From a virus, in the IMG/VR virus record IMGVR_UViG_3300022561_000016, positions 1 to 47,498 of that record: DNA of 47,498 nucleotides. One strand, 5' to 3'. How positions within the stretch are numbered: position 1 is the stretch's first letter; every line of letters begins with the position of its first letter. The notes under the pieces were generated by a model. It was not told the origin of the DNA. It saw only the letters and a program-made list of their open reading frames with translations, and did not search any database. Made by a program: the position numbers and the translations under genes. Shown piece after piece: positions 1-42,980 of this stretch.

Positions 1-127
1 TACGAAGCAAAGGCTTTCACCTATGCAGTGCATTGCAGCACTCCCACGCGACGACACGACGGACGACACGGAAGACACCGACGAGATCATCAATGTCCTG
101 AGTGGCAGGTAGCTACCGCGAGGCGAT
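1..127. repeat. Terminal direct repeat, copy 1 (identical to 47372..47498)
   Basis: Bases 1-127 recur base for base at 47372-47498, so the unique unit is 47371 bp. Confidence 0.97.
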
Positions 128-484
128 GAACGCCTCCAGCATGGAGATGACGGTATCCTGATCGCGCGCGTTGAGGCGATCCAGGCCGTCAAGGAATTGC
201 GACACGCGCGGCGACTCTTGGAGCGCTGCGCGTCGTGCGGTTCGCTCGGTGTCGTCCGCGCTGGCGCTGATCGGGTAGCCCGCATACGGTGCCAGATCGC
301 GCGTTTTCAGCCCGAACGCCTTCGCCACTTTCGCCACCTGCAACGGCTTCGGAACCACCCCGTCCTCGTTGTTGAGCCAATTGGCGACCGTGGAGCGCGA
401 CACGCCCGCCGCCTCCGCCAGCCACGCGGGCTTATGCCCCTTGCTGTCCAGCAACTCCCGAACCTTCGATCCCCACGCGTTCAT
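113..484 (-). CDS. XRE/CI-like HTH transcriptional repressor
   Basis: N-terminus WGSKVRELLDSKGHKPAWLAEAAGVSRSTVANWLN is a classic XRE helix-turn-helix. Start taken at the ATG at 484, preceded by GGAGGGG. The gene is divergent from a Cro-like gene. Confidence 0.8.
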   Translation of the reverse strand: MNAWGSKVRELLDSKGHKPAWLAEAAGVSRSTVANWLNNEDGVVPKPLQVAKVAKAFGLKTRDLAPYAGYPISASADDTERTARRAALQESPRVSQFLDGLDRLNARDQDTVISMLEAFIASR

Positions 485-559
485 CGTATTCCCCTCCGTA
501 GCACAGCTCGTGCAACGCAATCTGCCAATCAATGCAACAAGTATACCGCAAATATCTAT

Positions 560-588
560 TTGATTTATTGTACGATTGGCTGTATAAT
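560..588 (+). promoter_or_regulatory. Sigma70-type promoter (TTGATT-17 bp-TATAAT) for the rightward early genes
   Basis: TTGATT at 560-565, a 17-bp spacer and TATAAT at 583-588. It lies upstream of the 625 start in the divergent intergenic region. Confidence 0.6.
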
Positions 589-1857: not shown

Positions 1858-2682
1858 ATGACAACAGTACGGACATTCGGATACGGCGGCGGCGTGCAGA
1901 GCACGGGCGCGCTTGTGCTCGCTGCACAAGGCGCGCTCGATTACCGCATGTTCCTTTTCTGCCATACGGGAGAGGACAGTGAAGACCCCGCCACGCTGGA
2001 GTATTTGGAGCGATACGCCAAACCGTTCGCAGATGCAAACGGGATTGAGCTGCTGACTATTCGCTACACGCGCAAGCGCGACGGCGCGCAGCCGACGATC
2101 TTAGAAGCCATTGCAGCCGGGCGCGACATTATTCCCATGTATTTCGAGATGACGCGGGCCAAAGACCCGAAGCGGAACGGCGAGCCGCAACGCCTTTCGC
2201 GCACCTGTACCGCCGATTGGAAAGCCTCGGTTGCGGCAAAGTGGCAAAAAGAACACGGCGCCACGGCGGACGATCCGGGCGTGCATGGCCTCGGCATCTC
2301 GCTTGACGAGTTCGAGCGGATGCGAAGTTCGAGCGGGTTCGCGTGGCAGACGCTCGACTATCCGCTCGTGCGGATGCGGCTCACGCGGCAAGATTTGATC
2401 AATGTCATTGTGCGCGCGGGGCTGCCTGAGCCGCCGAAATCGGCATGTTATTTCTGCCCGCATCATAGCGTAGCTACGTGGCGCGCGATGCGCGACAAGC
2501 GGCCTGAGCTATTCGAGAAAGCCAAGGCGCTTGAGGCGGATGTAAATGTGCGGCGGGCCGCGAAAGGACTCTCGTCCGCGTACCTCAATCGCAAGCTCGT
2601 GCCGATTGATCAAGCCGTGGCTGGCGAACAGGCCAGTCTAGATTTTGACGACGCCTGCGAATCAGGCTTTTGCATGACGTAG
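1858..2682 (+). CDS. PAPS reductase-like / PP-loop ATP-pyrophosphatase family protein, paralog 1 (DndC/CysH-like fold)
   Basis: N-terminal FGYGGGVQSTG is a degenerate SGGxDS PP-loop. Conserved Cys residues occur at CTADWK, SACYFC and the C-terminal CESGFC. It is a paralog of 13127..13876. Confidence 0.75.
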   Translation: MTTVRTFGYGGGVQSTGALVLAAQGALDYRMFLFCHTGEDSEDPATLEYLERYAKPFADANGIELLTIRYTRKRDGAQPTILEAIAAGRDIIPMYFEMTRAKDPKRNGEPQRLSRTCTADWKASVAAKWQKEHGATADDPGVHGLGISLDEFERMRSSSGFAWQTLDYPLVRMRLTRQDLINVIVRAGLPEPPKSACYFCPHHSVATWRAMRDKRPELFEKAKALEADVNVRRAAKGLSSAYLNRKLVPIDQAVAGEQASLDFDDACESGFCMT

Positions 2683-5614: not shown

Positions 5615-5914
5615 ATGGCTGACATCGAATTCACACGCGGCTCTGCCACCGCCGCTGCGATCCTGCTGGGCGTGACCCGCCGCACGGTGTACCGCTGGCT
5701 CGATCAGGGTCGCTTGAGGTGGCACGCGGGGTGCGTCGTCATCCCCACGCCCGCGCCGACGATGCGCCCACGCGGCCCGCAGGCCAGCCCGACGAGCCAG
5801 CGCTACACGCGCGGGCGGCACACGTTTCGCGGGGATGCGTGGAGCATCGAAGCCAGCCAGCGGATAAGCAGCGCCCAGCCCGGCGAGCTGGCGACTGAGG
5901 AGAACGTATCGTGA
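5615..5914 (+). CDS. HTH DNA-binding protein (MerR/excisionase-type HTH)
   Basis: AAAILLGVTRRTVYRWLDQGRL is a typical excisionase-family HTH. Confidence 0.6.
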   Translation: MADIEFTRGSATAAAILLGVTRRTVYRWLDQGRLRWHAGCVVIPTPAPTMRPRGPQASPTSQRYTRGRHTFRGDAWSIEASQRISSAQPGELATEENVS

Positions 5915-6351
5915 CCGCGATCATCGTCGATCTCGACGGGACGCTGTGCGACGTATCGCATCGTGTCCACTTCGTCAAAGCGTCGCCGCCGAACTGGCAG
6001 GGCTTTTTCGATGCCTGCGTTGACGACACGCCGAACCCAGCGGTCGCGGCGCTCGTCGCGATGGCGGCGCGCGCGCACTACGCGATCCTGTACATCAGCG
6101 GCCGGCCGGATTCGCATCGCAGCCAGACCGAGGCGTGGCTGGCGCAGCACGGGCTGGCCTGCCACACGCGGCTGCTGATGCGTCGTGAAGGCGACTATCG
6201 GGAAGATACGGCGGTCAAGCGCGAGCTGTTTGACCAGTACATCAGCGGGCGGTGGGAGATCGCCTTCACGGTCGATGATCGAAATTCCGTGGTCGCAATG
6301 TGGCGCGGCATGGGGCTGGCCTGCTTCCAAGTCAGAGAAGGCGCGTTTTGA
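5911..6351 (+). CDS. HAD-superfamily phosphatase (polynucleotide 3'-phosphatase / nucleotidase-like)
   Basis: N-terminal IIVDLDGTLCD is HAD motif I (DxDxT). Also ISGRP and a C-terminal DD motif (FTVDDRNS). Confidence 0.7.
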   Translation: MTAIIVDLDGTLCDVSHRVHFVKASPPNWQGFFDACVDDTPNPAVAALVAMAARAHYAILYISGRPDSHRSQTEAWLAQHGLACHTRLLMRREGDYREDTAVKRELFDQYISGRWEIAFTVDDRNSVVAMWRGMGLACFQVREGAF

Positions 6352-7273: not shown

Positions 7274-7304
7274 CTGACGTGGCGCACATTGTGCGCCACG
7301 TCAG
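7274..7304 (+). other. Perfect 14-bp-stem hairpin (loop ATT)
   Basis: CTGACGTGGCGCAC-ATT-GTGCGCCACGTCAG lies between 7263 and 7321. No U-tract follows. Confidence 0.5.
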
Positions 7305-7320
7305 CAGATTGAGGCACAAA

Positions 7321-8436
7321 ATGACCGTAGCAATCCAAACAGCATTTTACGACTATGCCGCGCTGGATAGCGAAACCCGCATCATTGTGCAGCAGCGCAC
7401 GAGCGAGATCAAGGCGCTCATGAAGCGCGCCGCATCAGACATTATCGACATCGGGCAGAAGTTAATCGAGGTTAAGGCGCGGTTGGGACATGGCGAATTT
7501 ACGCCTTGGCTCAATACAGAATTTGATTGGAGCTGGGACACCGCCAAAAGATTCATGCGTGTTGCTGAAGTATTCCAAAATCAGCAAATTGCTGATTATC
7601 AAATCGCACCGAGCGCCCTATACCTACTCGCCGCGCCTTCGACTCCAGAGGACGTGCGAACAGACATAATCGCCCGCGCAGAGCAAGGCGAAACGATCAC
7701 CCACAGCGCAACGCGAGACGCTATCGAGCAAGCCCAGGAAGCACGGCGCTACGACGGGTTTGCGCTCGTGTCGCCGCCTGATGACGAAGACGACGAACCG
7801 CTATCAGCCTACGAACAGAGCATAGCGCGCTCCTACGTGCCGCCGGTCATGTCGCAGCCAATGAGCGTACTCACTAGTCAAGGCACCGTCGAATGGTACA
7901 CCCCGCCTGAACTGATCGAACGCGCCCGCAATGTCATGGGAGGTATCGACCTCGACCCTGCCAGTTCAGATGTTGCGCAACGATGGATTCAGGCCGGAAC
8001 GTACTACCAGTTCGATCTGAGCGCATTTGACTTTGACAAGCCACGCGCGAACGATGCTGAACTGAAACGCGATCTTAGCCGGTTCAGCCAAGCGCAGTTC
8101 GCCGCGCAGCCGCAATGGGCAGGCCGCGTATGGCTTAATCCGCCGTTCGATGACACGCCCACATGGGTTGATCGGCTCGACAGCGAGTACATCCATGGCG
8201 ACGTGACCGCAGCTGTCCTCTTGGTCAATAGCGCTCCTGGCTATATCTGGTGGGAGAACCTATGGCGGCGGCGGCCGGTCTGTATGCTACGTGAGCGTGT
8301 GTGCTTTTATCAGGCCGATGGCACATCTGATGGCCCGTCCAAGAAGGGCACCACGATTGCCTATTACGGCGAGAACGTTCAATCCTTCATCGCACAATTC
8401 GGCGCGCTTGGTCGCATCATTCTACCGGAAGAGTAA
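7321..8436 (+). CDS. DUF3102-like domain fused to a phage Dam-type N6-adenine DNA methyltransferase
   Basis: N-terminus IGQKLIEVKARLGHGEFTPWL...DTAKRFMRVAEVF (DUF3102 pattern). C-terminus VEWYTPPELIERAR..IDLDPAS...WLNPPFDD (Dam PF05869-like NPPF/Y motif). Confidence 0.75.
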   Translation: MTVAIQTAFYDYAALDSETRIIVQQRTSEIKALMKRAASDIIDIGQKLIEVKARLGHGEFTPWLNTEFDWSWDTAKRFMRVAEVFQNQQIADYQIAPSALYLLAAPSTPEDVRTDIIARAEQGETITHSATRDAIEQAQEARRYDGFALVSPPDDEDDEPLSAYEQSIARSYVPPVMSQPMSVLTSQGTVEWYTPPELIERARNVMGGIDLDPASSDVAQRWIQAGTYYQFDLSAFDFDKPRANDAELKRDLSRFSQAQFAAQPQWAGRVWLNPPFDDTPTWVDRLDSEYIHGDVTAAVLLVNSAPGYIWWENLWRRRPVCMLRERVCFYQADGTSDGPSKKGTTIAYYGENVQSFIAQFGALGRIILPEE

Positions 8437-12681: not shown

Positions 12682-12930
12682 ATGCAATCTTGTGACGCGC
12701 TAGAGTACGAATTTCGATTCGCGGATGATTCTTTCTTCACGCAAGATATGCGCGATAAGCGAGGGCTTACAGATCAAGAGTGGAAAAAGGTTTGCGTTTC
12801 GGTATACGCGGGCGTCGAAGCGCTGACCATACCCGAAGGAATGATACGCACGATCACGACCGTTTACGGAGGCTGGGATGTTGTGATCGACTACCCGGAC
12901 GGCGTGCGCCCGCTAAGCGCCTTCCGATGA
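12682..12930 (+). CDS. Hypothetical protein
   Basis: 82-aa ORF after AGGAG. GTG at 12676 is an alternative start. Confidence 0.5.
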   Translation: MQSCDALEYEFRFADDSFFTQDMRDKRGLTDQEWKKVCVSVYAGVEALTIPEGMIRTITTVYGGWDVVIDYPDGVRPLSAFR

Positions 12931-13130
12931 GTAATCGCAACGCCTTCCGACCGGCGGGCGAACTGGACAAAGCCGCGAGCGCCGCCGTATCCGCGATCAT
13001 CGTGCGACTGCGGGATCAGGACGGGCTATCGTTCGCACGGATTGCGCGCCGATTAGCGTATGACTTCGATGTTCAGATCAGCCGCGCCGCCGTGTGGCAG
13101 CGCTATCAACGAGAGGCAAAGGAACCATGA
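12927..13130 (+). CDS. Small HTH protein (resolvase/sigma-r4-like HTH)
   Basis: GLSFARIARRLAYDFDVQISRAAVWQRY. The last 46 bp are duplicated 800 bp downstream. Confidence 0.5.
   Translation: MSNRNAFRPAGELDKAASAAVSAIIVRLRDQDGLSFARIARRLAYDFDVQISRAAVWQRYQREAKEP
13075..13120 (+). repeat. Direct repeat copy 1 (46 bp, 41/46 identical to 13875..13920)
   Basis: AGATCAGCCGCGccGCCGTGTGGCAGCGCTATCAACG... encodes the C-terminus ISRAAVWQRYQRE of the upstream gene. Confidence 0.9.
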
Positions 13131-13876
13131 ACACACAAATACTTAACTACGGTGGTGGCTGGCAGACCACCGGCATGCTCGTGCTGATTGAGCAAGGCAC
13201 GCTCCCGCGCCCCGATCGGATCGTGATCGCGGACACGGGACGCGAACGCAAGACGACATGGCGGTACCTGGAGCAAACGGCCCAGCCGCGTATGCGGGCG
13301 TTGGGACTGGAGATCGAGATTGCGCCGCGCTCGCTGGCGAAGGTTGACATTTACTCGCATCAGGGAACGCTATTGTTGCCGGCGTATACCGCAACTGGCA
13401 AACTCTCGGCTTATTGCTCAAACGAATGGAAACAGCGCGTTGTTGACCGCTACCTGCGGCAAACTGGTGCGCCGGTCGCTGCCGAGCGCACGCACTGGAT
13501 TGGCTTTACGTATGATGAACGCCAGCGGATCAAAGGAGAGCAGGGCCGATTGTATCCACTGGTCGACATGATGCTCACAAAAGCAGATATTCGTCAAATT
13601 ATCCGCGCCGCTGGCTGGCCTGACCCGACCCCTAGCGCGTGCTTTATGTGCGCCAATCTGGATAATGCCGAGTGGCGCAACATCCGCGCAAACGACCCCG
13701 CCGATTTTGAAGCCGCGTGCGTGCTCGATGAGGAAATACGCGAGGAAGATAGGTTTCGTGGCGGATCGGGCGTGTGGCTCCATCGTAGCCGTGTGCCGCT
13801 ACGCGAGGCCGATCTTGACGTGGAAGATCGCAAAGACCCAGCGCGCCAGTGCGGGCTAGGGATGTGCTTCGTGTAG
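13127..13876 (+). CDS. PAPS reductase-like / PP-loop family protein, paralog 2
   Basis: NYGGGWQTTG (PP-loop-like), CSNEWK, SACFMC and the C-terminal CGLGMC are the same motif set as 1858..2682. The gene is flanked by 46-bp direct repeats. Confidence 0.75.
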   Translation: MNTQILNYGGGWQTTGMLVLIEQGTLPRPDRIVIADTGRERKTTWRYLEQTAQPRMRALGLEIEIAPRSLAKVDIYSHQGTLLLPAYTATGKLSAYCSNEWKQRVVDRYLRQTGAPVAAERTHWIGFTYDERQRIKGEQGRLYPLVDMMLTKADIRQIIRAAGWPDPTPSACFMCANLDNAEWRNIRANDPADFEAACVLDEEIREEDRFRGGSGVWLHRSRVPLREADLDVEDRKDPARQCGLGMCFV

Positions 13877-13920
13877 ATCAGCCGCGTTGCCGTGTGGCAG
13901 CGCTATCAACGGGAGACGAA
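13875..13920 (+). repeat. Direct repeat copy 2 (non-coding relic reading ISRVAVWQRYQRETKNA-stop)
   Basis: Exactly 800 bp downstream of copy 1. It begins right after the stop codon of the PP-loop gene. Confidence 0.9.
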
Positions 13921-13922
13921 GA

Positions 13923-14270
13923 ATGCGTAACATTTCATTTTCGGCAACCAAGCCGCAGTTTCGTGCGCGCACCAAGACCGTAACGCGCCGAATGGGCTGG
14001 GCGCGTCTGAAAGCAGGCGATTTTCTGATGGGCGTAGAGAAGGCGCAAGGCTTGAAGAAAGGCGAAAAGATCGTTGCGCTTGGCCCGGTCTGGGTCGTGA
14101 GCGTGCGGCGCGAACCGCTCAACATGATTACGCAAGACGATTGCGACCGTGAAGGCTTTCCAGAATATACGCCCGCGCAGTTTGTGGCATTCTTTTGCAC
14201 GTTCAACGGCTGTGCTCCTGATGCCCTAGTAACGCGCATTGAATTTGCATATGAGGAGAAGCAACCATGA
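13923..14270 (+). CDS. ASCH-like (PUA-fold) domain protein
   Basis: ISFSATKPQFRARTKTVTRRMGWARLKAGDFL...EGFPEYTPAQFVAFF resembles the ASCH N-terminal beta-barrel pattern. Confidence 0.5.
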   Translation: MRNISFSATKPQFRARTKTVTRRMGWARLKAGDFLMGVEKAQGLKKGEKIVALGPVWVVSVRREPLNMITQDDCDREGFPEYTPAQFVAFFCTFNGCAPDALVTRIEFAYEEKQP

Positions 14271-14467
14271 CCAGCCAAGCACTGCCACGAAGCGACGCCG
14301 AGCAGCTGCGCGACGCACGGACGGCCAACGGCCTGCTCCGCGAGCGGCTCGCCGAGCAGGAGGCGCTGGTCGCGCAGTATCGCGCGCGGGCCGATGCGCT
14401 GGAGGCGCGGCTGGGCGAGGCGATGGCGCTGGCGGAAGACGTGCTGAGAACGTACCGGCCAAAATAG
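14267..14467 (+). CDS. Hypothetical coiled-coil protein
   Basis: 66 aa. The C-terminus RADALEARLGEAMAL is repeated in the next gene. Confidence 0.5.
   Translation: MTSQALPRSDAEQLRDARTANGLLRERLAEQEALVAQYRARADALEARLGEAMALAEDVLRTYRPK
14390..14432 (+). repeat. Direct repeat copy 1 (43 bp, 1 mismatch)
   Basis: GCCGATGCGCTGGAGGCGCGGCTGGGCGA(G/T)GCGATGGCGCTGG recurs at 14639-14681. Confidence 0.9.
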
Positions 14468-14491
14468 AATGTGGGTTAAGGAGGGACGGGG

Positions 14492-14719
14492 ATGCCAAAA
14501 GGAACAGTAGCATTGTCGTGGGGAGATTGGGGCGGAGTCTACGCCAAGCGGGGCTATAGTTGGCGGCTGTGTTTTGGCTGGGTCGCCTTGACCTGGCTGC
14601 CCATCGAGCTTGACGATCTCGTTGAGGGGTACGCGCGCGCCGATGCGCTGGAGGCGCGGCTGGGCGATGCGATGGCGCTGGTGGCGACGCACGCCGAGAT
14701 TATGCGCAAAACATTGTGA
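14492..14719 (+). CDS. Hypothetical protein (Trp/Gly-rich N-terminus, C-terminus homologous to the upstream gene)
   Basis: 75 aa after AAGGAGG. Confidence 0.45.
   Translation: MPKGTVALSWGDWGGVYAKRGYSWRLCFGWVALTWLPIELDDLVEGYARADALEARLGDAMALVATHAEIMRKTL
14639..14681 (+). repeat. Direct repeat copy 2 (43 bp)
   Basis: 249 bp downstream of copy 1, in frame in both genes. Confidence 0.9.
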
Positions 14720-14735
14720 AATGAGGAGGAACAGG

Positions 14736-14969
14736 ATGCAGCTATTTGACCGACTACGAACGTGCCTTGAGTTGGAAAGCAAATCGCACAGGCTGTGGGA
14801 TGACGCATTCTCGAACGTGTGTTACGCCAAGCTATCGGAGAAGATGCGCGACGGCTATATCCAAAAGACATACGAAGCGACCCGCCTGCACGCCGAGGCG
14901 CAGCAGAATCTCCGCGATCTTGCGAAAGAGCTGAACGAAATACTCAGCACAGGATATCACCTCGACTAA
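14736..14969 (+). CDS. Hypothetical helical protein
   Basis: ATG at 14736 after GAGGAGGAAC. 77 aa. Confidence 0.5.
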   Translation: MQLFDRLRTCLELESKSHRLWDDAFSNVCYAKLSEKMRDGYIQKTYEATRLHAEAQQNLRDLAKELNEILSTGYHLD

Positions 14970-41292: not shown

Positions 41293-41704
41293 GGCCGTGC
41301 GCTTCTAAATCTAACGAAATCTGGAACGCTTTCAGCAGCACCCCCAGCGTGGCGGGCGTGACCTCCAGCGTCGTAATCTGCGCGTCCATCTTCTTGAGCA
41401 GCTTCGCCGCGACCGTGTACAGCCCGCGCGCCGCCTCCATCGACCGCCCACGATGCGCCTCAAGGTCGGCAAGGTAGCGCGCAGAATGCACAGCGGACGC
41501 TTCGTCAGCGAGCGATTGATCGTAGTCTCGTGACCTATCCGTCCAACCATGCTGCGCTGACCAGCGATCCATCAGTGTCTTGCTTTTGCTTAACTGCTGC
41601 CCAACCTTTGCGGTACTCCGATCCACGCCCAGCGCGAAGTAGGCGCACGCCGCTTGGTACGCCTGTGCGCTCTCAGTATCGCGTTGTGCGGGGTAGTTAG
41701 CCAT
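41258..41704 (-). CDS. terS: Terminase small subunit (HTH type)
   Basis: AYQAACAYFALGVDRSTAKVGQQLSKSKTLMDRWSAQHGW is a typical TerS N-terminus. It sits upstream of terL. Confidence 0.7.
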   Translation of the reverse strand: MANYPAQRDTESAQAYQAACAYFALGVDRSTAKVGQQLSKSKTLMDRWSAQHGWTDRSRDYDQSLADEASAVHSARYLADLEAHRGRSMEAARGLYTVAAKLLKKMDAQITTLEVTPATLGVLLKAFQISLDLEAHGLGIDRIDDDSE

Positions 41705-42812
41705 CGATTACACTGCACTCCATGCCTTCGGCCTCGGCTCTGCGAAGAATGACATCGGCATACTTTGGCGCGATCTCCATGCCGTAGCAGCGCCGTCCGG
41801 TGCGATGCGCGGCGATCAGCGTTGTGCCAGAGCCGAGGAAGGGATCGGCTACAATCGCGTTATTGTCGCTAAAACACGGCAAAACTTGAACGCCAAGATC
41901 GACATGTTTAGCGTGCGGATGCTCACTCGCACGATCAAATTTTGACGCGACTTCGATCACAGAATGCAATCCATTGAGATGATAATTTTTCGCCTTATCA
42001 GTGCGATAGTGAGCAAACAAAAGATGCTGCAAGAGTGGGATATATACATTCAAGTTCCGGCTAAATTGTCGATAGAACAGCACGAGGAATTGATTGAATC
42101 GTCCTATGTACCGTGCGCCGAGCGCGACATGCTGCTTATCTCCGAGCGCCAAAAGCCAATGCGCATAACAGTACTTTACCCACGCCTCAATCCACAATGT
42201 ATCTGCGTCATACTCAGGATCGGCAAAAAGCAATTCCGCCCGCTCCCCACCCATCAGCCGCGCCACGTTCGCCGCATCGGTGCAATCGCCCACGAGGAGC
42301 CGATGCACGCCGCCGATGCTCCATAGCTGACCGAGCTGCGTCCGCGTCGGGCCGTCGTCAGGCGTGGTATCGAACTCGTCGCCGCCCGCGCACGCCTCTG
42401 GCACGTCAGGGAACGACACGTCGGCCCATTCCTCAGCGGTAAACAGCGAACCGAGATCAACGCCGCTATCCGCGATGCTGGCGAGAATATCCGGCTCCCA
42501 CTCCAGGTTCAGCGAAGCTACGCGATTCGCCGCGATGCCCAGCCGCACGGCGCGCGGGTCGGTCGCCGTCGCGATGTCCGTGCGCCGCACGACAATCGGT
42601 CGCGTGCCGTCGCTGTCCACGATGATCGCATCGTCAAGCATCCCGTTCTCAGCGGTCTTTTCGACCCGCGCCGAACCGTCGAAGGTTTCGCCATCGGCGG
42701 CGACGGTGATCGCGCCGATCCAGCCGTCGGAGGCCAGCGAAGTCTCCAGCGCCTGCATACCGCGCGCGGTGTGGCGATTTGCGTTGGCGCGTTGTGGCCG
42801 TATCTCACTCAT
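41697..42812 (-). CDS. ParB-like nuclease domain fused to a beta-class N6/N4 DNA methyltransferase
   Basis: N-terminus IRPQRANANRHTARGMQALETSLASDGWIGAITV. MTase part HRLLVGDC...LLFADPEYD (motif IV variant) ... VADPFLGSGTT (motif I). Start taken at the ATG at 42812. Confidence 0.85.
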   Translation of the reverse strand: MSEIRPQRANANRHTARGMQALETSLASDGWIGAITVAADGETFDGSARVEKTAENGMLDDAIIVDSDGTRPIVVRRTDIATATDPRAVRLGIAANRVASLNLEWEPDILASIADSGVDLGSLFTAEEWADVSFPDVPEACAGGDEFDTTPDDGPTRTQLGQLWSIGGVHRLLVGDCTDAANVARLMGGERAELLFADPEYDADTLWIEAWVKYCYAHWLLALGDKQHVALGARYIGRFNQFLVLFYRQFSRNLNVYIPLLQHLLFAHYRTDKAKNYHLNGLHSVIEVASKFDRASEHPHAKHVDLGVQVLPCFSDNNAIVADPFLGSGTTLIAAHRTGRRCYGMEIAPKYADVILRRAEAEGMECSVIDG

Positions 42813-42980
42813 GCTGTAACGACTTTCCTTGCAATCCAAAGCAACATTATGCTCAACAATGTATATTTAAGGCCACGAAGTTACCGCCCATCGTGTACCC
42901 TGATCGCCCTATTTCGCCCCTACCAAGCCGAAATGCACCGAAACCCTTTACACTCGTTCGTGAAAGCGTGTAAAAGACTG

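What the first reader, a model, noticed from the sequence alone, without database searches (positions are those of the whole stretch)
1858..2682. PP-loop / PAPS-reductase-like enzyme with a conserved Cys set, present as two diverged paralogs
Seen: 1858..2682 and 13127..13876 share these motifs:
- YGGG(V/W)Q(S/T)TG, a degenerate SGGxDS PP-loop
- C(T/S)x(D/E)WK
- YPLV.M.LT..D....I..AG.P.P..SAC(Y/F)(F/M)C
- a C-terminal C..G.C

Otherwise the two are strongly diverged. Established: this fold (CysH, DndC, TtcA, QueC, TilS relatives) adenylates a substrate, and the Cys-rich members bind Fe-S clusters and modify nucleic-acid bases or backbone. Inference: carrying two copies in a 47-kb phage, together with two ASCH-like readers and two methyltransferases, suggests an uncharacterised DNA or RNA modification (anti-restriction) pathway rather than sulfate assimilation.
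Basis: partly seen in the sequence, partly recalled or inferred. Interest (0 to 1): 0.7.

Follow-up and report, generated by a model that had tools for sequence, protein, structure and literature searches.

The report
Two SspD-like enzymes in one phage
This phage carries two old, diverged copies of a widespread phage and plasmid enzyme that is usually labelled "PAPS reductase" but is closest to the bacterial enzymes that put sulfur into the DNA backbone, so it most likely helps the phage escape host restriction and has nothing to do with sulfur nutrition.

Summary
ORFs 1858-2682 (274 aa, A) and 13127-13876 (249 aa, B) are real genes and true paralogs (30% identity, E 3e-33).

Both fold confidently (pLDDT 93 and 91) as PP-loop/adenine-nucleotide hydrolase domains with a flexible Cys-bearing tail. 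Neither reaches Pfam PAPS_reduct. Both match PHROG 424, the PADLOC SspD model and the solved vibriophage protein PptA (PDB 21fy).

A profile alignment to CysH/APS reductases is weak. It puts three conserved Cys on three of the four positions that bind the Fe-S cluster in those enzymes. The sulfonucleotide-binding Arg motif is replaced by invariant Asp-Glu.

The family is large (about 7,900 clusters at 50% identity), nearly always a standalone gene, and carried on phages and plasmids. Its neighbours are DNA methylases, DpdA transglycosylases and ArdC-like genes, never sulfate-assimilation genes. In actinobacteria, A-type homologs sit in SspABCD phosphorothioation islands beside a canonical SspD.

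Best reading: two independently acquired counter-defence cassettes that act on DNA, probably on its phosphorothioate status. The chemistry is untested. This is a new member of a known but mechanistically unresolved kind. The "ASCH readers" were not found.

The parts
1858..2682 (+). Paralog A: 274-aa SspD-like / PAPS-reductase-like PP-loop domain protein (A-type subfamily). It is the fifth gene of the rightward early operon.
   Evidence: ORF and translation. Identical protein P0001 in public assemblies. PHROG 424 E 2.5e-29. PADLOC SspD E 1.1e-10. AF2 pLDDT 92.8. Foldseek gives PP-loop enzymes.
13127..13876 (+). Paralog B: 249-aa member of the same family (B-type subfamily), in the middle of the early/replication operon.
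   Evidence: P0121 identical. PHROG 424 E 1.2e-29. PADLOC SspD E 2.5e-8 over model positions 3-228 of 277. AF2 pLDDT 91.1. Foldseek gives LarE and GMP synthetase.
1882..1908 (+). A: degenerate PP-loop YGGGVQSTG. It takes the place of SGGKDS in canonical SspD and of SFGIQAA in CysH.
   Evidence: Alignments. G10-G12 and Q14 are at least 90% conserved.
2206..2223 (+). A: CTADWK. C117 and K122 are invariant. The motif aligns with the CC..RK Fe-S / nucleotide motif of APS reductases and with WCTxxLK of SspD.
2302..2319 (+). A: LDEFER. D150, E151 and R154 are invariant. The motif occupies the place of the RRxQSxxR sulfonucleotide-binding motif of CysH.
2440..2457 (+). A: SACYFC. S195, C197 and C200 are invariant. 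The motif aligns with SIGCxPC of APS reductases and with SGCYFC of SspD.
   Evidence: An intein is inserted at this motif in relative P0326.
2656..2673 (+). A: C-terminal CESGFC (C267, G270, C272) in a low-confidence, presumably mobile tail.
13148..13174 (+). B: degenerate PP-loop YGGGWQTTG.
13415..13432 (+). B: CSNEWK (C97 and K102 invariant).
13511..13528 (+). B: YDERQR (D130, E131 and R134 invariant).
13634..13651 (+). B: SACFMC (S170, C172 and C175 invariant).
13850..13867 (+). B: C-terminal CGLGMC (C242, G245, C247), reminiscent of the ECGLH tail of CysH. Lies in the low-confidence tail.
   Evidence: CysH sequences.
12927..13130 (+). Context: small HTH-like ORF (67 aa) whose stop overlaps the start of B (ATGA). 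It is not conserved in relatives.
   Evidence: Gene call. Weak Sigma70_r4_2 hit on the longer ORF version. Sequence. No homolog next to B-type relatives.
113..532 (-). Context: repressor-like HTH_3 gene diverging from the early operon that contains A. A promoter-like site lies at 560-588(+).
7279..8436 (+). Context: DUF3102 plus Dam-like methyltransferase, sub-threshold (25.5 bits against a cut-off of 28.1).
41697..42839 (-). Context: N6_N4 DNA methyltransferase next to the terminase genes.
   Evidence: L104 2469-3611, PF01555. Gene map.

Best explanation
A and B are two functional members of a very large clade of the PAPS-reductase/PP-loop superfamily that is carried on phages and plasmids (PHROG 424, the 'phage PAPS reductase' / PptA family). 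Their nearest characterised relatives are the SspD/DndC-type enzymes that insert sulfur into the DNA backbone (phosphorothioation, PT), not assimilatory CysH.

Proposed mechanism:
1. Each protein is a standalone enzyme made early in infection.
2. It binds a nucleotide in its variant PP-loop.
3. It carries an Fe-S cluster or sulfur on the Cys triad (C117/C197/C200 in A).
4. It uses the mobile C-terminal Cys pair to take up or hand on sulfur from a host donor such as IscS.
5. It acts on DNA, so that the phage is no longer recognised by PT-based (Dnd/Ssp-type) or related restriction.

The two copies come from two old subclades, were acquired as separate cassettes, and probably differ in target specificity.

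Shown here: paralogy, fold, motif conservation, family relationships, gene contexts.
Inferred: Fe-S binding, sulfur transfer, DNA as the substrate, PT as the product, and the counter-defence role.
For: Family and fold:
- Both proteins hit PHROG 424 at about 1e-29.
- Both hit the PADLOC SspD model, as do PptA and other relatives, and none hits DndC.
- The family HMM hits canonical operon-encoded SspD at 6e-24. It shares C-T-x3-K, DE..R, S-x-C-x-F-C and a C-terminal Cys pair.
- The family profile hits the solved vibriophage protein PptA (21fy) at E 3.6e-8.
- AF2 models are confident and match PP-loop enzymes, including the [4Fe-4S] sulfur transferases NcsA, TtuA and LarE.

Active-site features:
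- hhalign to CysH/APS reductases places C117, C197 and C200 on three of the four positions that hold the CC...CxxC Cys of APS reductases. Their role as Fe-S ligands is from my own knowledge, not from a tool result.
- The sulfonucleotide Arg motif is replaced by invariant D150/E151.
- Strict conservation across about 7,900 clusters argues for catalysis.
- An intein sits at the CxxC motif in one relative.

Context:
- In 45 of the 80 best cellular loci, the A-type gene lies in an SspA/SspB/SspC(/SspD) island with helicase, HATPase and PLD genes.
- On phages, the immediate neighbours are enriched in DNA methylases and DpdA, and never include sulfur-assimilation genes.
- On Agrobacterium plasmids the gene sits beside ArdC-like, ParB and ProQ/FinO genes.
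- A lies near the start of the early operon.

Literature:
- A vibriophage PAPS reductase is cited as promoting escape from Dnd (PMC13551039 and PMC10945359, citing Piel et al. 2022).
- TdpC alone suffices for PT synthesis (PMC12914056, citing An et al. 2025), so a single-protein PT writer has a precedent.
Against: - There is no biochemical or genetic datum for A, B or their close relatives. I could not read either the Piel et al. paper or any paper on PptA.
- The PP-loop is degenerate (GGGxQ[ST]T instead of SGGKDS), so ATP pyrophosphatase activity is not assured.
- All characterised PT writers except TdpC need a DndD/SspC-type ATPase, and Ssp also needs SspB. The window and the phage loci lack these.
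- In actinobacterial islands the family gene coexists with a canonical SspD. It is therefore not simply an SspD and may do something else there.
- A recurrent link to DpdA-type transglycosylases, by adjacency and by one fusion, points to base modification in at least some phages.
- One vibriophage study saw no Dnd-specific benefit (PMC10945359).
- The host of this phage, and therefore its defence systems, is unknown.
Confidence: 0.45

Rival explanations
1. Non-writing antagonist of host PT systems. The proteins mimic SspD/DndC and disable PT-based defence without modifying phage DNA. They could titrate the host sulfur donor or partner proteins (IscS, DndD/E, SspB/C), or remove or alter PT on host DNA.
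For: - Homology to SspD.
- No SspB/C or DndD/E partners on phages.
- The cited anti-Dnd phenotype (PMC13551039).
- Early-operon position of A.
- The degenerate PP-loop is compatible with a loss of adenylation chemistry.
Against: - Near-invariant catalytic-type residues across thousands of diverged clusters favour an enzyme over a decoy.
- So does an intein targeted to the CxxC motif.
- The family also sits inside cellular Ssp islands, where a pure inhibitor would make little sense.
Confidence: 0.15
2. Accessory enzyme of a base-modification pathway, of the 7-deazaguanine / DpdA type or another base exchange or thiolation. It would activate or sulfurate a base in DNA, or a base precursor.
For: - DpdA (PF23859) lies directly next to the family gene in L005/L108 (a B-type relative at 77% identity), L025/L109, L038 and L088. 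It is nearby in L024 and L059.
- A short DpdA-like gene lies near the family gene in L061, L067 and Arthrobacter phage Aoka.
- P0425 is a fusion of a DpdA-like domain and a family domain.
- PP-loop enzymes commonly adenylate base carbonyls or carboxyls (established knowledge).
Against: - The window has no DpdA or DpdA-like gene.
- Only about 8 of about 97 viral loci have one within 10 kb.
- Fusion or adjacency of independent anti-restriction modules is common on phages.
- No preQ0-synthesis genes accompany the pairs I examined.
Confidence: 0.12
3. RNA (tRNA) thiolation or another RNA modification, as done by TtcA, TtuA and NcsA, which would reprogram translation during infection.
For: The best PDB fold match for A is the [4Fe-4S] tRNA thiolase NcsA, and TtuA, MnmA and TilS also appear. 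A three-Cys arrangement is typical of these enzymes (established knowledge).
Against: - The fold matches are weak (TM about 0.4) and generic for the superfamily.
- Sequence relatives are SspD and PptA, not TtcA or TtuA.
- The genomic company is DNA methylases, DpdA, Ssp islands and ArdC-like genes.
Confidence: 0.08
4. Auxiliary metabolic gene: a true PAPS/APS reductase (CysH) that boosts host sulfate assimilation.
For: - This is the usual database label.
- There is distant profile similarity to CysH.
- B has a CGLGMC tail that resembles ECGLH.
Against: - A and B have no Pfam PF01507 hit even at E<=1.
- hhalign to CysH reaches only E 1e-5 at 13% identity.
- The RRxQSxxR motif is replaced by acidic residues.
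- No sulfate-pathway neighbour was found in the window or in 118 neighbours of relatives.
- The gene is carried on plasmids next to anti-restriction genes and in PT islands.
Confidence: 0.04

Closest known systems
PptA of Vibrio phage vB_VhaP_VH-5 (PDB 21fy) and the PHROG 424 'phage PAPS reductase' family
   Same: Same family. The profile E-value is 3.6e-8 to PptA, and PHROG 424 matches at about 1e-29. Both are about 250-aa standalone proteins with a variant PP-loop, C-T-x3-K, CxxC and a C-terminal Cys pair, encoded among early or replication genes.
   Different: PptA is only about 20% identical and belongs to another subclade (SCGAPS loop, CxxxC tail). I could not find its function in the library. 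Carrying two diverged copies, as this phage does, is unusual.
SspD (PT-modification enzyme of SspABCD)
   Same: Best-matching defence-system model (PADLOC SspD). Direct HMM similarity to operon-encoded SspD, with shared motifs C-T-x3-K, DE..R, S-x-C-x-F-C..W and a C-terminal Cys pair. Similar size.
   Different: Canonical SspD has a true SGGKDS PP-loop, passes PF01507 and sits after SspB and SspC. A and B have GGGxQ[ST]T, fail PF01507 and have no SspB/C. In actinobacteria the A-type gene is a separate gene that coexists with SspD.
TdpC and DndC / BrxP (other PAPS-reductase-domain PT enzymes)
   Same: Same superfamily. TdpC is the precedent for PT synthesis by one protein through an adenylated DNA intermediate (PMC12914056, citing An et al. 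2025).
   Different: No PADLOC DndC hit, and only one relative has a faint BrxP hit. DndC needs DndD/E and BrxP needs BrxC, and both are absent here. TdpC was not compared directly, because I had no sequence for it.
Assimilatory PAPS/APS reductase CysH
   Same: Same fold and order of motifs (Q-containing variant PP-loop, DTG..ET, C..K, CxxC, Cys-bearing mobile tail). Three of the four positions that bind the Fe-S cluster in APS reductases (my own knowledge) are conserved.
   Different: 13% identity and E 1e-5. The sulfonucleotide Arg motif is replaced by Asp-Glu. There are no cys-pathway neighbours, and the genomic context is a mobile element.
Vibriophage 'PAPS reductase' reported to counter Dnd (Piel et al. 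2022, as cited)
   Same: Phages of that collection carry family members. 434O48-1 is 33% identical to B. 236O40-1 and 168E36-1 are PptA-like.
   Different: I could not read the paper, so I do not know which gene was tested or by what mechanism it acts.

Membership tests
PP-loop ATP pyrophosphatase / adenine-nucleotide alpha-hydrolase superfamily | Rossmann-like alpha/beta fold of the superfamily | tested here: met
   The AF2 models (pLDDT 92.8 and 91.1) match only PP-loop enzymes, at prob 0.99-1.0 and TM about 0.4: NcsA, PAPS reductase, TilS, LarE, TtuA and GMP synthetase.
PP-loop ATP pyrophosphatase / adenine-nucleotide alpha-hydrolase superfamily | SGGxDS pyrophosphate-binding loop | tested here: not met
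   A has YGGGVQST and B has YGGGWQTT. The first Ser and the Asp are replaced, while the Q matches CysH SFGIQAA.
Pfam PF01507 PAPS_reduct | Score above the Pfam gathering threshold | tested here: not met
   No hit for A or B at E<=1. 35 of 75 relatives hit weakly, best E 1.3e-5.
Assimilatory CysH (PAPS/APS reductase) | Sulfonucleotide-binding R(R/K)xQSxxR motif | tested here: not met
   It aligns to G-I-S-L-D-E-x-x-R, with invariant D and E.
Assimilatory CysH (PAPS/APS reductase) | C-terminal ECGLH catalytic Cys on a mobile tail | tested here: inconclusive
   The tails CESGFC (A) and CGLGMC (B) are conserved and have low pLDDT, but hhalign did not align them.
Assimilatory CysH (PAPS/APS reductase) | Genomic association with sulfate-assimilation genes (cysDN, cysC, cysIJ) | tested here: not met
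   None in the window and none among 118 immediate neighbours of relatives.
Fe-S APS reductase subgroup | CC...CxxC ligands of the [4Fe-4S] cluster | tested here: inconclusive
   Three of the four positions are conserved (C117, C197, C200). The first Cys of the CC pair is absent. Cluster binding itself cannot be tested here.
SspD (SspABCD PT modification) | Match to an SspD profile | tested here: inconclusive
   The PADLOC SspD hits are real but modest: A 1.1e-10, B 2.5e-8. The family HMM against canonical SspD gives 6e-24 in a tiny database.
SspD (SspABCD PT modification) | Encoded in an operon with SspB (DUF4007) and SspC | tested here: not met
   There is no SspA/B/C in the window or in the viral loci, apart from L051, which carries a whole island. 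In actinobacteria the family gene is additional to a canonical SspD.
DndC (DndABCDE PT modification) | Match to a DndC profile, with DndD/DndE partners | tested here: not met
   No DndC hit in PADLOC at E<=10. No partner genes are present.
PHROG 424 / PptA-type phage 'PAPS reductase' | Profile match over the catalytic domain, plus the shared Cys architecture | tested here: met
   phrog_424 E 2.5e-29 for A and 1.2e-29 for B. PptA E 3.6e-8 with the family profile. The motifs compare.
PHROG 424 / PptA-type phage 'PAPS reductase' | Biochemical activity or phenotype (anti-Dnd) | not testable with these tools
   Known only through citations (PMC13551039, PMC10945359).
QueC (7-cyano-7-deazaguanine synthase) | QueC profile or fold match, with the SGGxDS and Zn-Cys motifs | tested here: not met
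   Only weak BFVD fold matches (TM 0.33-0.36). No Pfam or NCBIfam QueC hit.

The most novel reading that the evidence does not exclude
The family, including A and B, may be autonomous DNA-modifying enzymes that install or remove a sulfur-containing mark (backbone PT or a thio-base) without any of the SspB/SspC or DndD/DndE helpers. In some phages they would work together with DpdA-type transglycosylases, as the fusion protein P0425 and repeated adjacency suggest. In actinobacteria they would form, with an HTH partner, an undescribed component of Ssp-based immunity. The two paralogs in this phage would then write two different marks or specificities.
Probability: 0.2. Interest if true: 0.8.

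Novelty: new member of a known kind. Interest (0 to 1): 0.45.

Why it matters
Phage "PAPS reductase" (cysH) genes are among those most often counted as auxiliary metabolic genes for sulfur cycling. The evidence here argues that this clade is not CysH: the sulfonucleotide motif is lost, there are no sulfate-pathway partners, the genes keep company with methylases, DpdA, ArdC-like genes and Ssp islands, and the closest relatives are SspD and PptA. It is more likely a DNA-directed counter-defence enzyme. If so, viral "sulfur AMG" inventories are inflated.

If the enzymes act alone on DNA, they would be compact tools for DNA phosphorothioation and a widespread way for phages to escape PT-based immunity. 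A phage with two diverged copies is a natural system for asking whether the subclades differ in specificity.

Tried and rejected
- Near-identical DNA search in GenBank phages: no match.
- Pfam, NCBIfam and single-sequence PDB searches of A and B: nothing useful.
- Close-relative scan of viral contigs with A alone: no loci. With the DnaB helicase, to get syntenic genomes covering both paralogs: one 6.8-kb contig only. I therefore could not measure directly how often A-type and B-type genes share a genome. The only indirect measure is that 47519 bp (this phage) is the only contig length common to the two top-120 hit lists.
- Literature on 'PptA', on phage VH-5 and on DpdA plus PAPS reductase: nothing relevant. 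Piel et al. 2022 is not held. The Dnd antagonist JSS1_004 is an unrelated kinase.
- Conserved partner hypothesis: the ORFs upstream of A and B have no homologs next to relatives, and the actinobacterial HTH partner has no homolog in the window.
- DpdA in the window: none, neither the PF23859 type nor the short actinophage type.
- The idea that the actinobacterial A-type gene is the island's own SspD: rejected. Colinear islands show a canonical SspD as well as the family gene.
- ASCH readers: not found.
- I could not inspect model coordinates, so spatial clustering of the Cys residues is untested.
Full report
**1. The observation**

The window is a 47.5-kb, 62% GC, circularly permuted phage genome. 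Early and replication genes lie on the + strand (about 0.5-22 kb) and structural genes on the - strand.

- ORF 1858-2682 encodes 274 aa (A). ORF 13127-13876 encodes 249 aa (B).
- Identical proteins are called in independent public assemblies of the same phage (P0001, P0121).
- A and B align end to end at 30% identity, E 3e-33.
- In an alignment of 75 homologs from both subfamilies, C117, K122, D150, E151, R154, S195, C197, C200, W208 and C272 (A numbering) are invariant. G10-G12, Q14, C267 and G270 are at least 90% conserved.

**2. What the proteins are**

Sequence searches:

- Neither protein hits Pfam, even at E<=1, nor NCBIfam in any meaningful way.
- Both hit PHROG 424, 'phosphoadenosine phosphosulfate reductase', at about 1e-29.
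- 35 of 75 relatives touch PF01507 weakly.

Structure:

- AF2 models are confident (pLDDT 92.8 and 91.1). The last 20 or so residues, which carry the C-terminal Cys pair, have low confidence.
- Foldseek finds only PP-loop enzymes, at modest TM (about 0.4). These include NcsA, TtuA and LarE ([4Fe-4S] sulfur transferases), yeast PAPS reductase, plant APS reductase, TilS and GMP synthetase.
- Among viral models the best match is another phage 'PAPS reductase' (TM 0.65).

Closest solved and characterised relatives:

- A family profile finds one solved relative by sequence: 'PptA', PDB 21fy, E 3.6e-8. I traced it to the gene just downstream of the RNA polymerase gene of Vibrio phage vB_VhaP_VH-5. 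I found no paper on it.
- In the PADLOC library A, B, PptA and three other relatives all hit the SspD model and not DndC.
- The family HMM hits operon-encoded canonical SspD at 6e-24. It shares C-T-x3-K, DE..R, S-x-C-x-F-C..W and a C-terminal Cys pair.

Comparison with real CysH:

- A local profile-profile comparison with six bona fide CysH/APS reductases gives only 82% probability, E 1e-5.
- The alignment is still informative. The variant loop GvQST aligns with SFGIQAA.
- C117 aligns with the CC..RK motif, and C197/C200 with SIGCxPC. These are three of the four Cys positions that bind the Fe-S cluster in APS reductases (the ligand assignment is my own knowledge).
- The RRxQSxxR motif is replaced by G-I-S-L-D-E-x-x-R. 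That this motif binds the phosphosulfate is my own knowledge of CysH, not a tool result.

The proteins are therefore not CysH. They form a separate SspD-like clade with a degenerate PP-loop.

**3. Size and distribution of the family**

- An exhaustive HMM search finds 7,903 clusters at 50% identity with E<=1e-3, and 1,754 with E<=1e-30. Almost all are standalone proteins of 250-290 aa.
- Cultured-phage members span Thermus P23-77, Salisaeta SSIP-1, Pelagibacter and Vibrio podophages, Pseudomonas, Mycobacterium, Arthrobacter, cyanophages and a Nitrosopumilus virus.
- 180 plasmid records carry the gene, 106 of them from Agrobacterium and 74 conjugative. In pAtG3_79b it lies beside a zincin (ArdC-like) gene, ParB and ProQ/FinO. 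On a Streptomyces plasmid it lies directly after a ParB gene.

**4. Context on phages**

- I examined about 97 viral or metagenomic loci. Around the family gene no partner is conserved.
- Neighbourhoods are mosaic. Relatives with a 77%-identical A (L105) or B (L108) share almost no other gene with this phage.
- Among 118 immediate neighbours of 68 non-redundant loci, the recurrent families are N6/N4 methylases (6), C5 methylases (3) and DpdA (3). There are no sulfate-assimilation genes, no cysteine desulfurase and no DndD/SspC ATPase.
- In the wider 10-kb flanks of all these loci, N6/N4 and C5 methylases occur in 17 and 16 loci.
- A second family copy within 10 kb occurs only in L087 and L100, where the pairs are 58% identical.
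- In the window, A is the fifth gene of the early operon. That operon diverges from a repressor-like gene, and a promoter-like site lies at 560-588.
- B lies after the DnaB helicase gene among small genes. It is preceded by a non-conserved HTH-like ORF.

**5. Context in cells**

A scan of one genome per species found 343 relatives. The best 80 are 42-48% identical to A. They are mostly Streptomyces and other actinomycetes, plus Ktedonobacteria.

- In 45 of these 80 loci the gene lies in a phosphorothioation island. The island holds SspA (Aminotran_5), SspB (DUF4007; PADLOC E 1e-121), SspC (E 3e-223), a ResIII helicase (PbeA-like), an HATPase_c_3 protein and a PLD nuclease.
- An HTH_17 protein is directly upstream of the family gene in nearly every one of these islands.
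- In colinear versions the order is SspA>SspB>SspC>SspD>HTH>family gene.
- Related ssp operons show the canonical SspD, which passes PF01507 and has an SGGKDS loop, after SspC.

The family gene is therefore an additional, distinct component tied to PT-based immunity. It is not the island's own SspD.

**6. A second recurrent link: DpdA**

- DpdA (PF23859) directly follows the B-type gene in the closest B relative (L005/L108, 77% identity).
- It flanks A-type genes in L025/L109, L038 and L088.
- A short 'DpdA-like' family lies near the gene in L061, L067 and Arthrobacter phage Aoka.
- P0425 is a single protein. Its N-terminal domain is 32-36% identical to actinophage DpdA-like transglycosylases, and its C-terminal part is a family domain.
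- The window has no DpdA of either kind.

This may reflect stacking of independent anti-restriction modules or a shared pathway. I cannot tell which.

**7. Literature**

- Papers in the library treat phage PAPS reductases as unresolved (PMC11437467; bioRxiv 10.64898/2026.02.18.706556).
- Two papers cite Piel et al. 2022 for a vibriophage PAPS reductase that promotes escape from Dnd (PMC13551039, PMC10945359). The second saw no such effect in its own phages.
- According to PMC8092258, 84% of sspBCD modules lack a known restriction partner.

**8. Interpretation**

The most economical reading is that A and B are catalytically competent SspD-like enzymes carried as counter-defence cassettes, acting on DNA and most likely on its PT status.

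- Shown: paralogy, fold, motif conservation, clade membership, contexts.
- Inferred: Fe-S binding, sulfur transfer, DNA substrate, PT product, anti-defence role.

The main rivals are:

- an antagonist that does not write a mark;
- a role in DpdA-type base modification;
- RNA thiolation;
- true CysH metabolism (least likely).

The two copies belong to subclades that normally occur singly, and both keep every invariant residue. I therefore favour two independent activities or specificities over a two-step pathway.

**9. Verdict**

This is a real and correctly described feature: a new, double member of a known but mechanistically unresolved family.

Noticed in passing
P0326 (588-aa relative; not in the window). 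Equivalent window position is about 2449-2457 (the C-x-x-C motif of A).: An intein (CFAGETEV...VTGN|C, with a homing-endonuclease-like insert) is inserted immediately before the second Cys of the S-x-C-x-x-C motif. Inteins usually home to functionally critical sites.
   Followed up: partly
L005/L108 10790-11554; L025/L109 2134-2775; L038 4474-5205; L088 8852-9652; L061 2250-2816; L067 13147-13731; protein P0425; Arthrobacter phage Aoka gp36/gp40 (L203): DpdA or DpdA-like DNA transglycosylase genes repeatedly lie next to the family gene, and once are fused to it. I found no paper linking the two. The window itself has no DpdA.
   Followed up: partly
L005/L108 10790-12169: The DpdA gene is followed by an HNH endonuclease gene and then by a 67-aa ORF that repeats the DpdA C-terminus (55% identity). 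This looks like a homing-endonuclease insertion that split or duplicated the end of the gene.
   Followed up: no
L119-L198, e.g. L167 1-13302 and L122: 45 of 80 actinobacterial loci carry SspA/B/C(/D) plus a ResIII helicase, an HATPase_c_3 protein and a PLD nuclease, and in nearly all of them an HTH_17 protein paired with the family gene. This may be an undescribed restriction or regulatory module of Ssp phosphorothioation systems.
   Followed up: partly
L200 (Agrobacterium plasmid pAtG3_79b) 5473-7888; L199 (Streptomyces plasmid) 13452-14819: The family is common on plasmids (180 records, 106 from Agrobacterium). It sits next to zincin/ArdC-like, ParB and ProQ/FinO genes, or directly after a ParB gene, which resembles a leading-region anti-restriction cluster.
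   Followed up: partly
L117 3929-4786 (Vibrio phage 434O48-1, VP434O481_P0025): This gene is annotated 'putative ribosomal L7Ae/L30e/S12e/Gadd45 family protein', but it is a member of this family (33% identity to B, E 4e-35). The annotation is probably wrong.
   Followed up: no
window 7279-8436 (+): A 385-aa protein combining DUF3102 with a sub-threshold Dam-like methyltransferase region, just upstream of a 313-aa protein with no family hit and the DnaB helicase gene.
   Followed up: no
window 5911-6351 (+): PNKP-type HAD phosphatase domain protein (E 2e-39) in the early region. A similar PNK3P/HAD gene lies near the family gene and DpdA in L109.
   Followed up: no
window ends, compared with ENA contig k141_479937 (L103/L104): The same phage is assembled elsewhere with a different start point (47,482 bp). 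The window is therefore a complete, circularly permuted or terminally redundant genome. The terminase, portal and N6_N4 methylase genes at 37.9-42.8 kb lie 'upstream' of A in that assembly.
   Followed up: partly
window 12927-13130 (+): A small ORF with an HTH-like sequence (LSFARIARRL...VSRAAVWQRY) overlaps the start codon of B. This echoes the HTH + family gene pairing in actinobacteria, but the ORF has no homolog next to B-type relatives.
   Followed up: yes
P0311 (414 aa): This protein contains one and a half family domains in tandem (profile positions 3-201, then 57-264). It could be a real internal duplication or an assembly or gene-call chimera.
   Followed up: no
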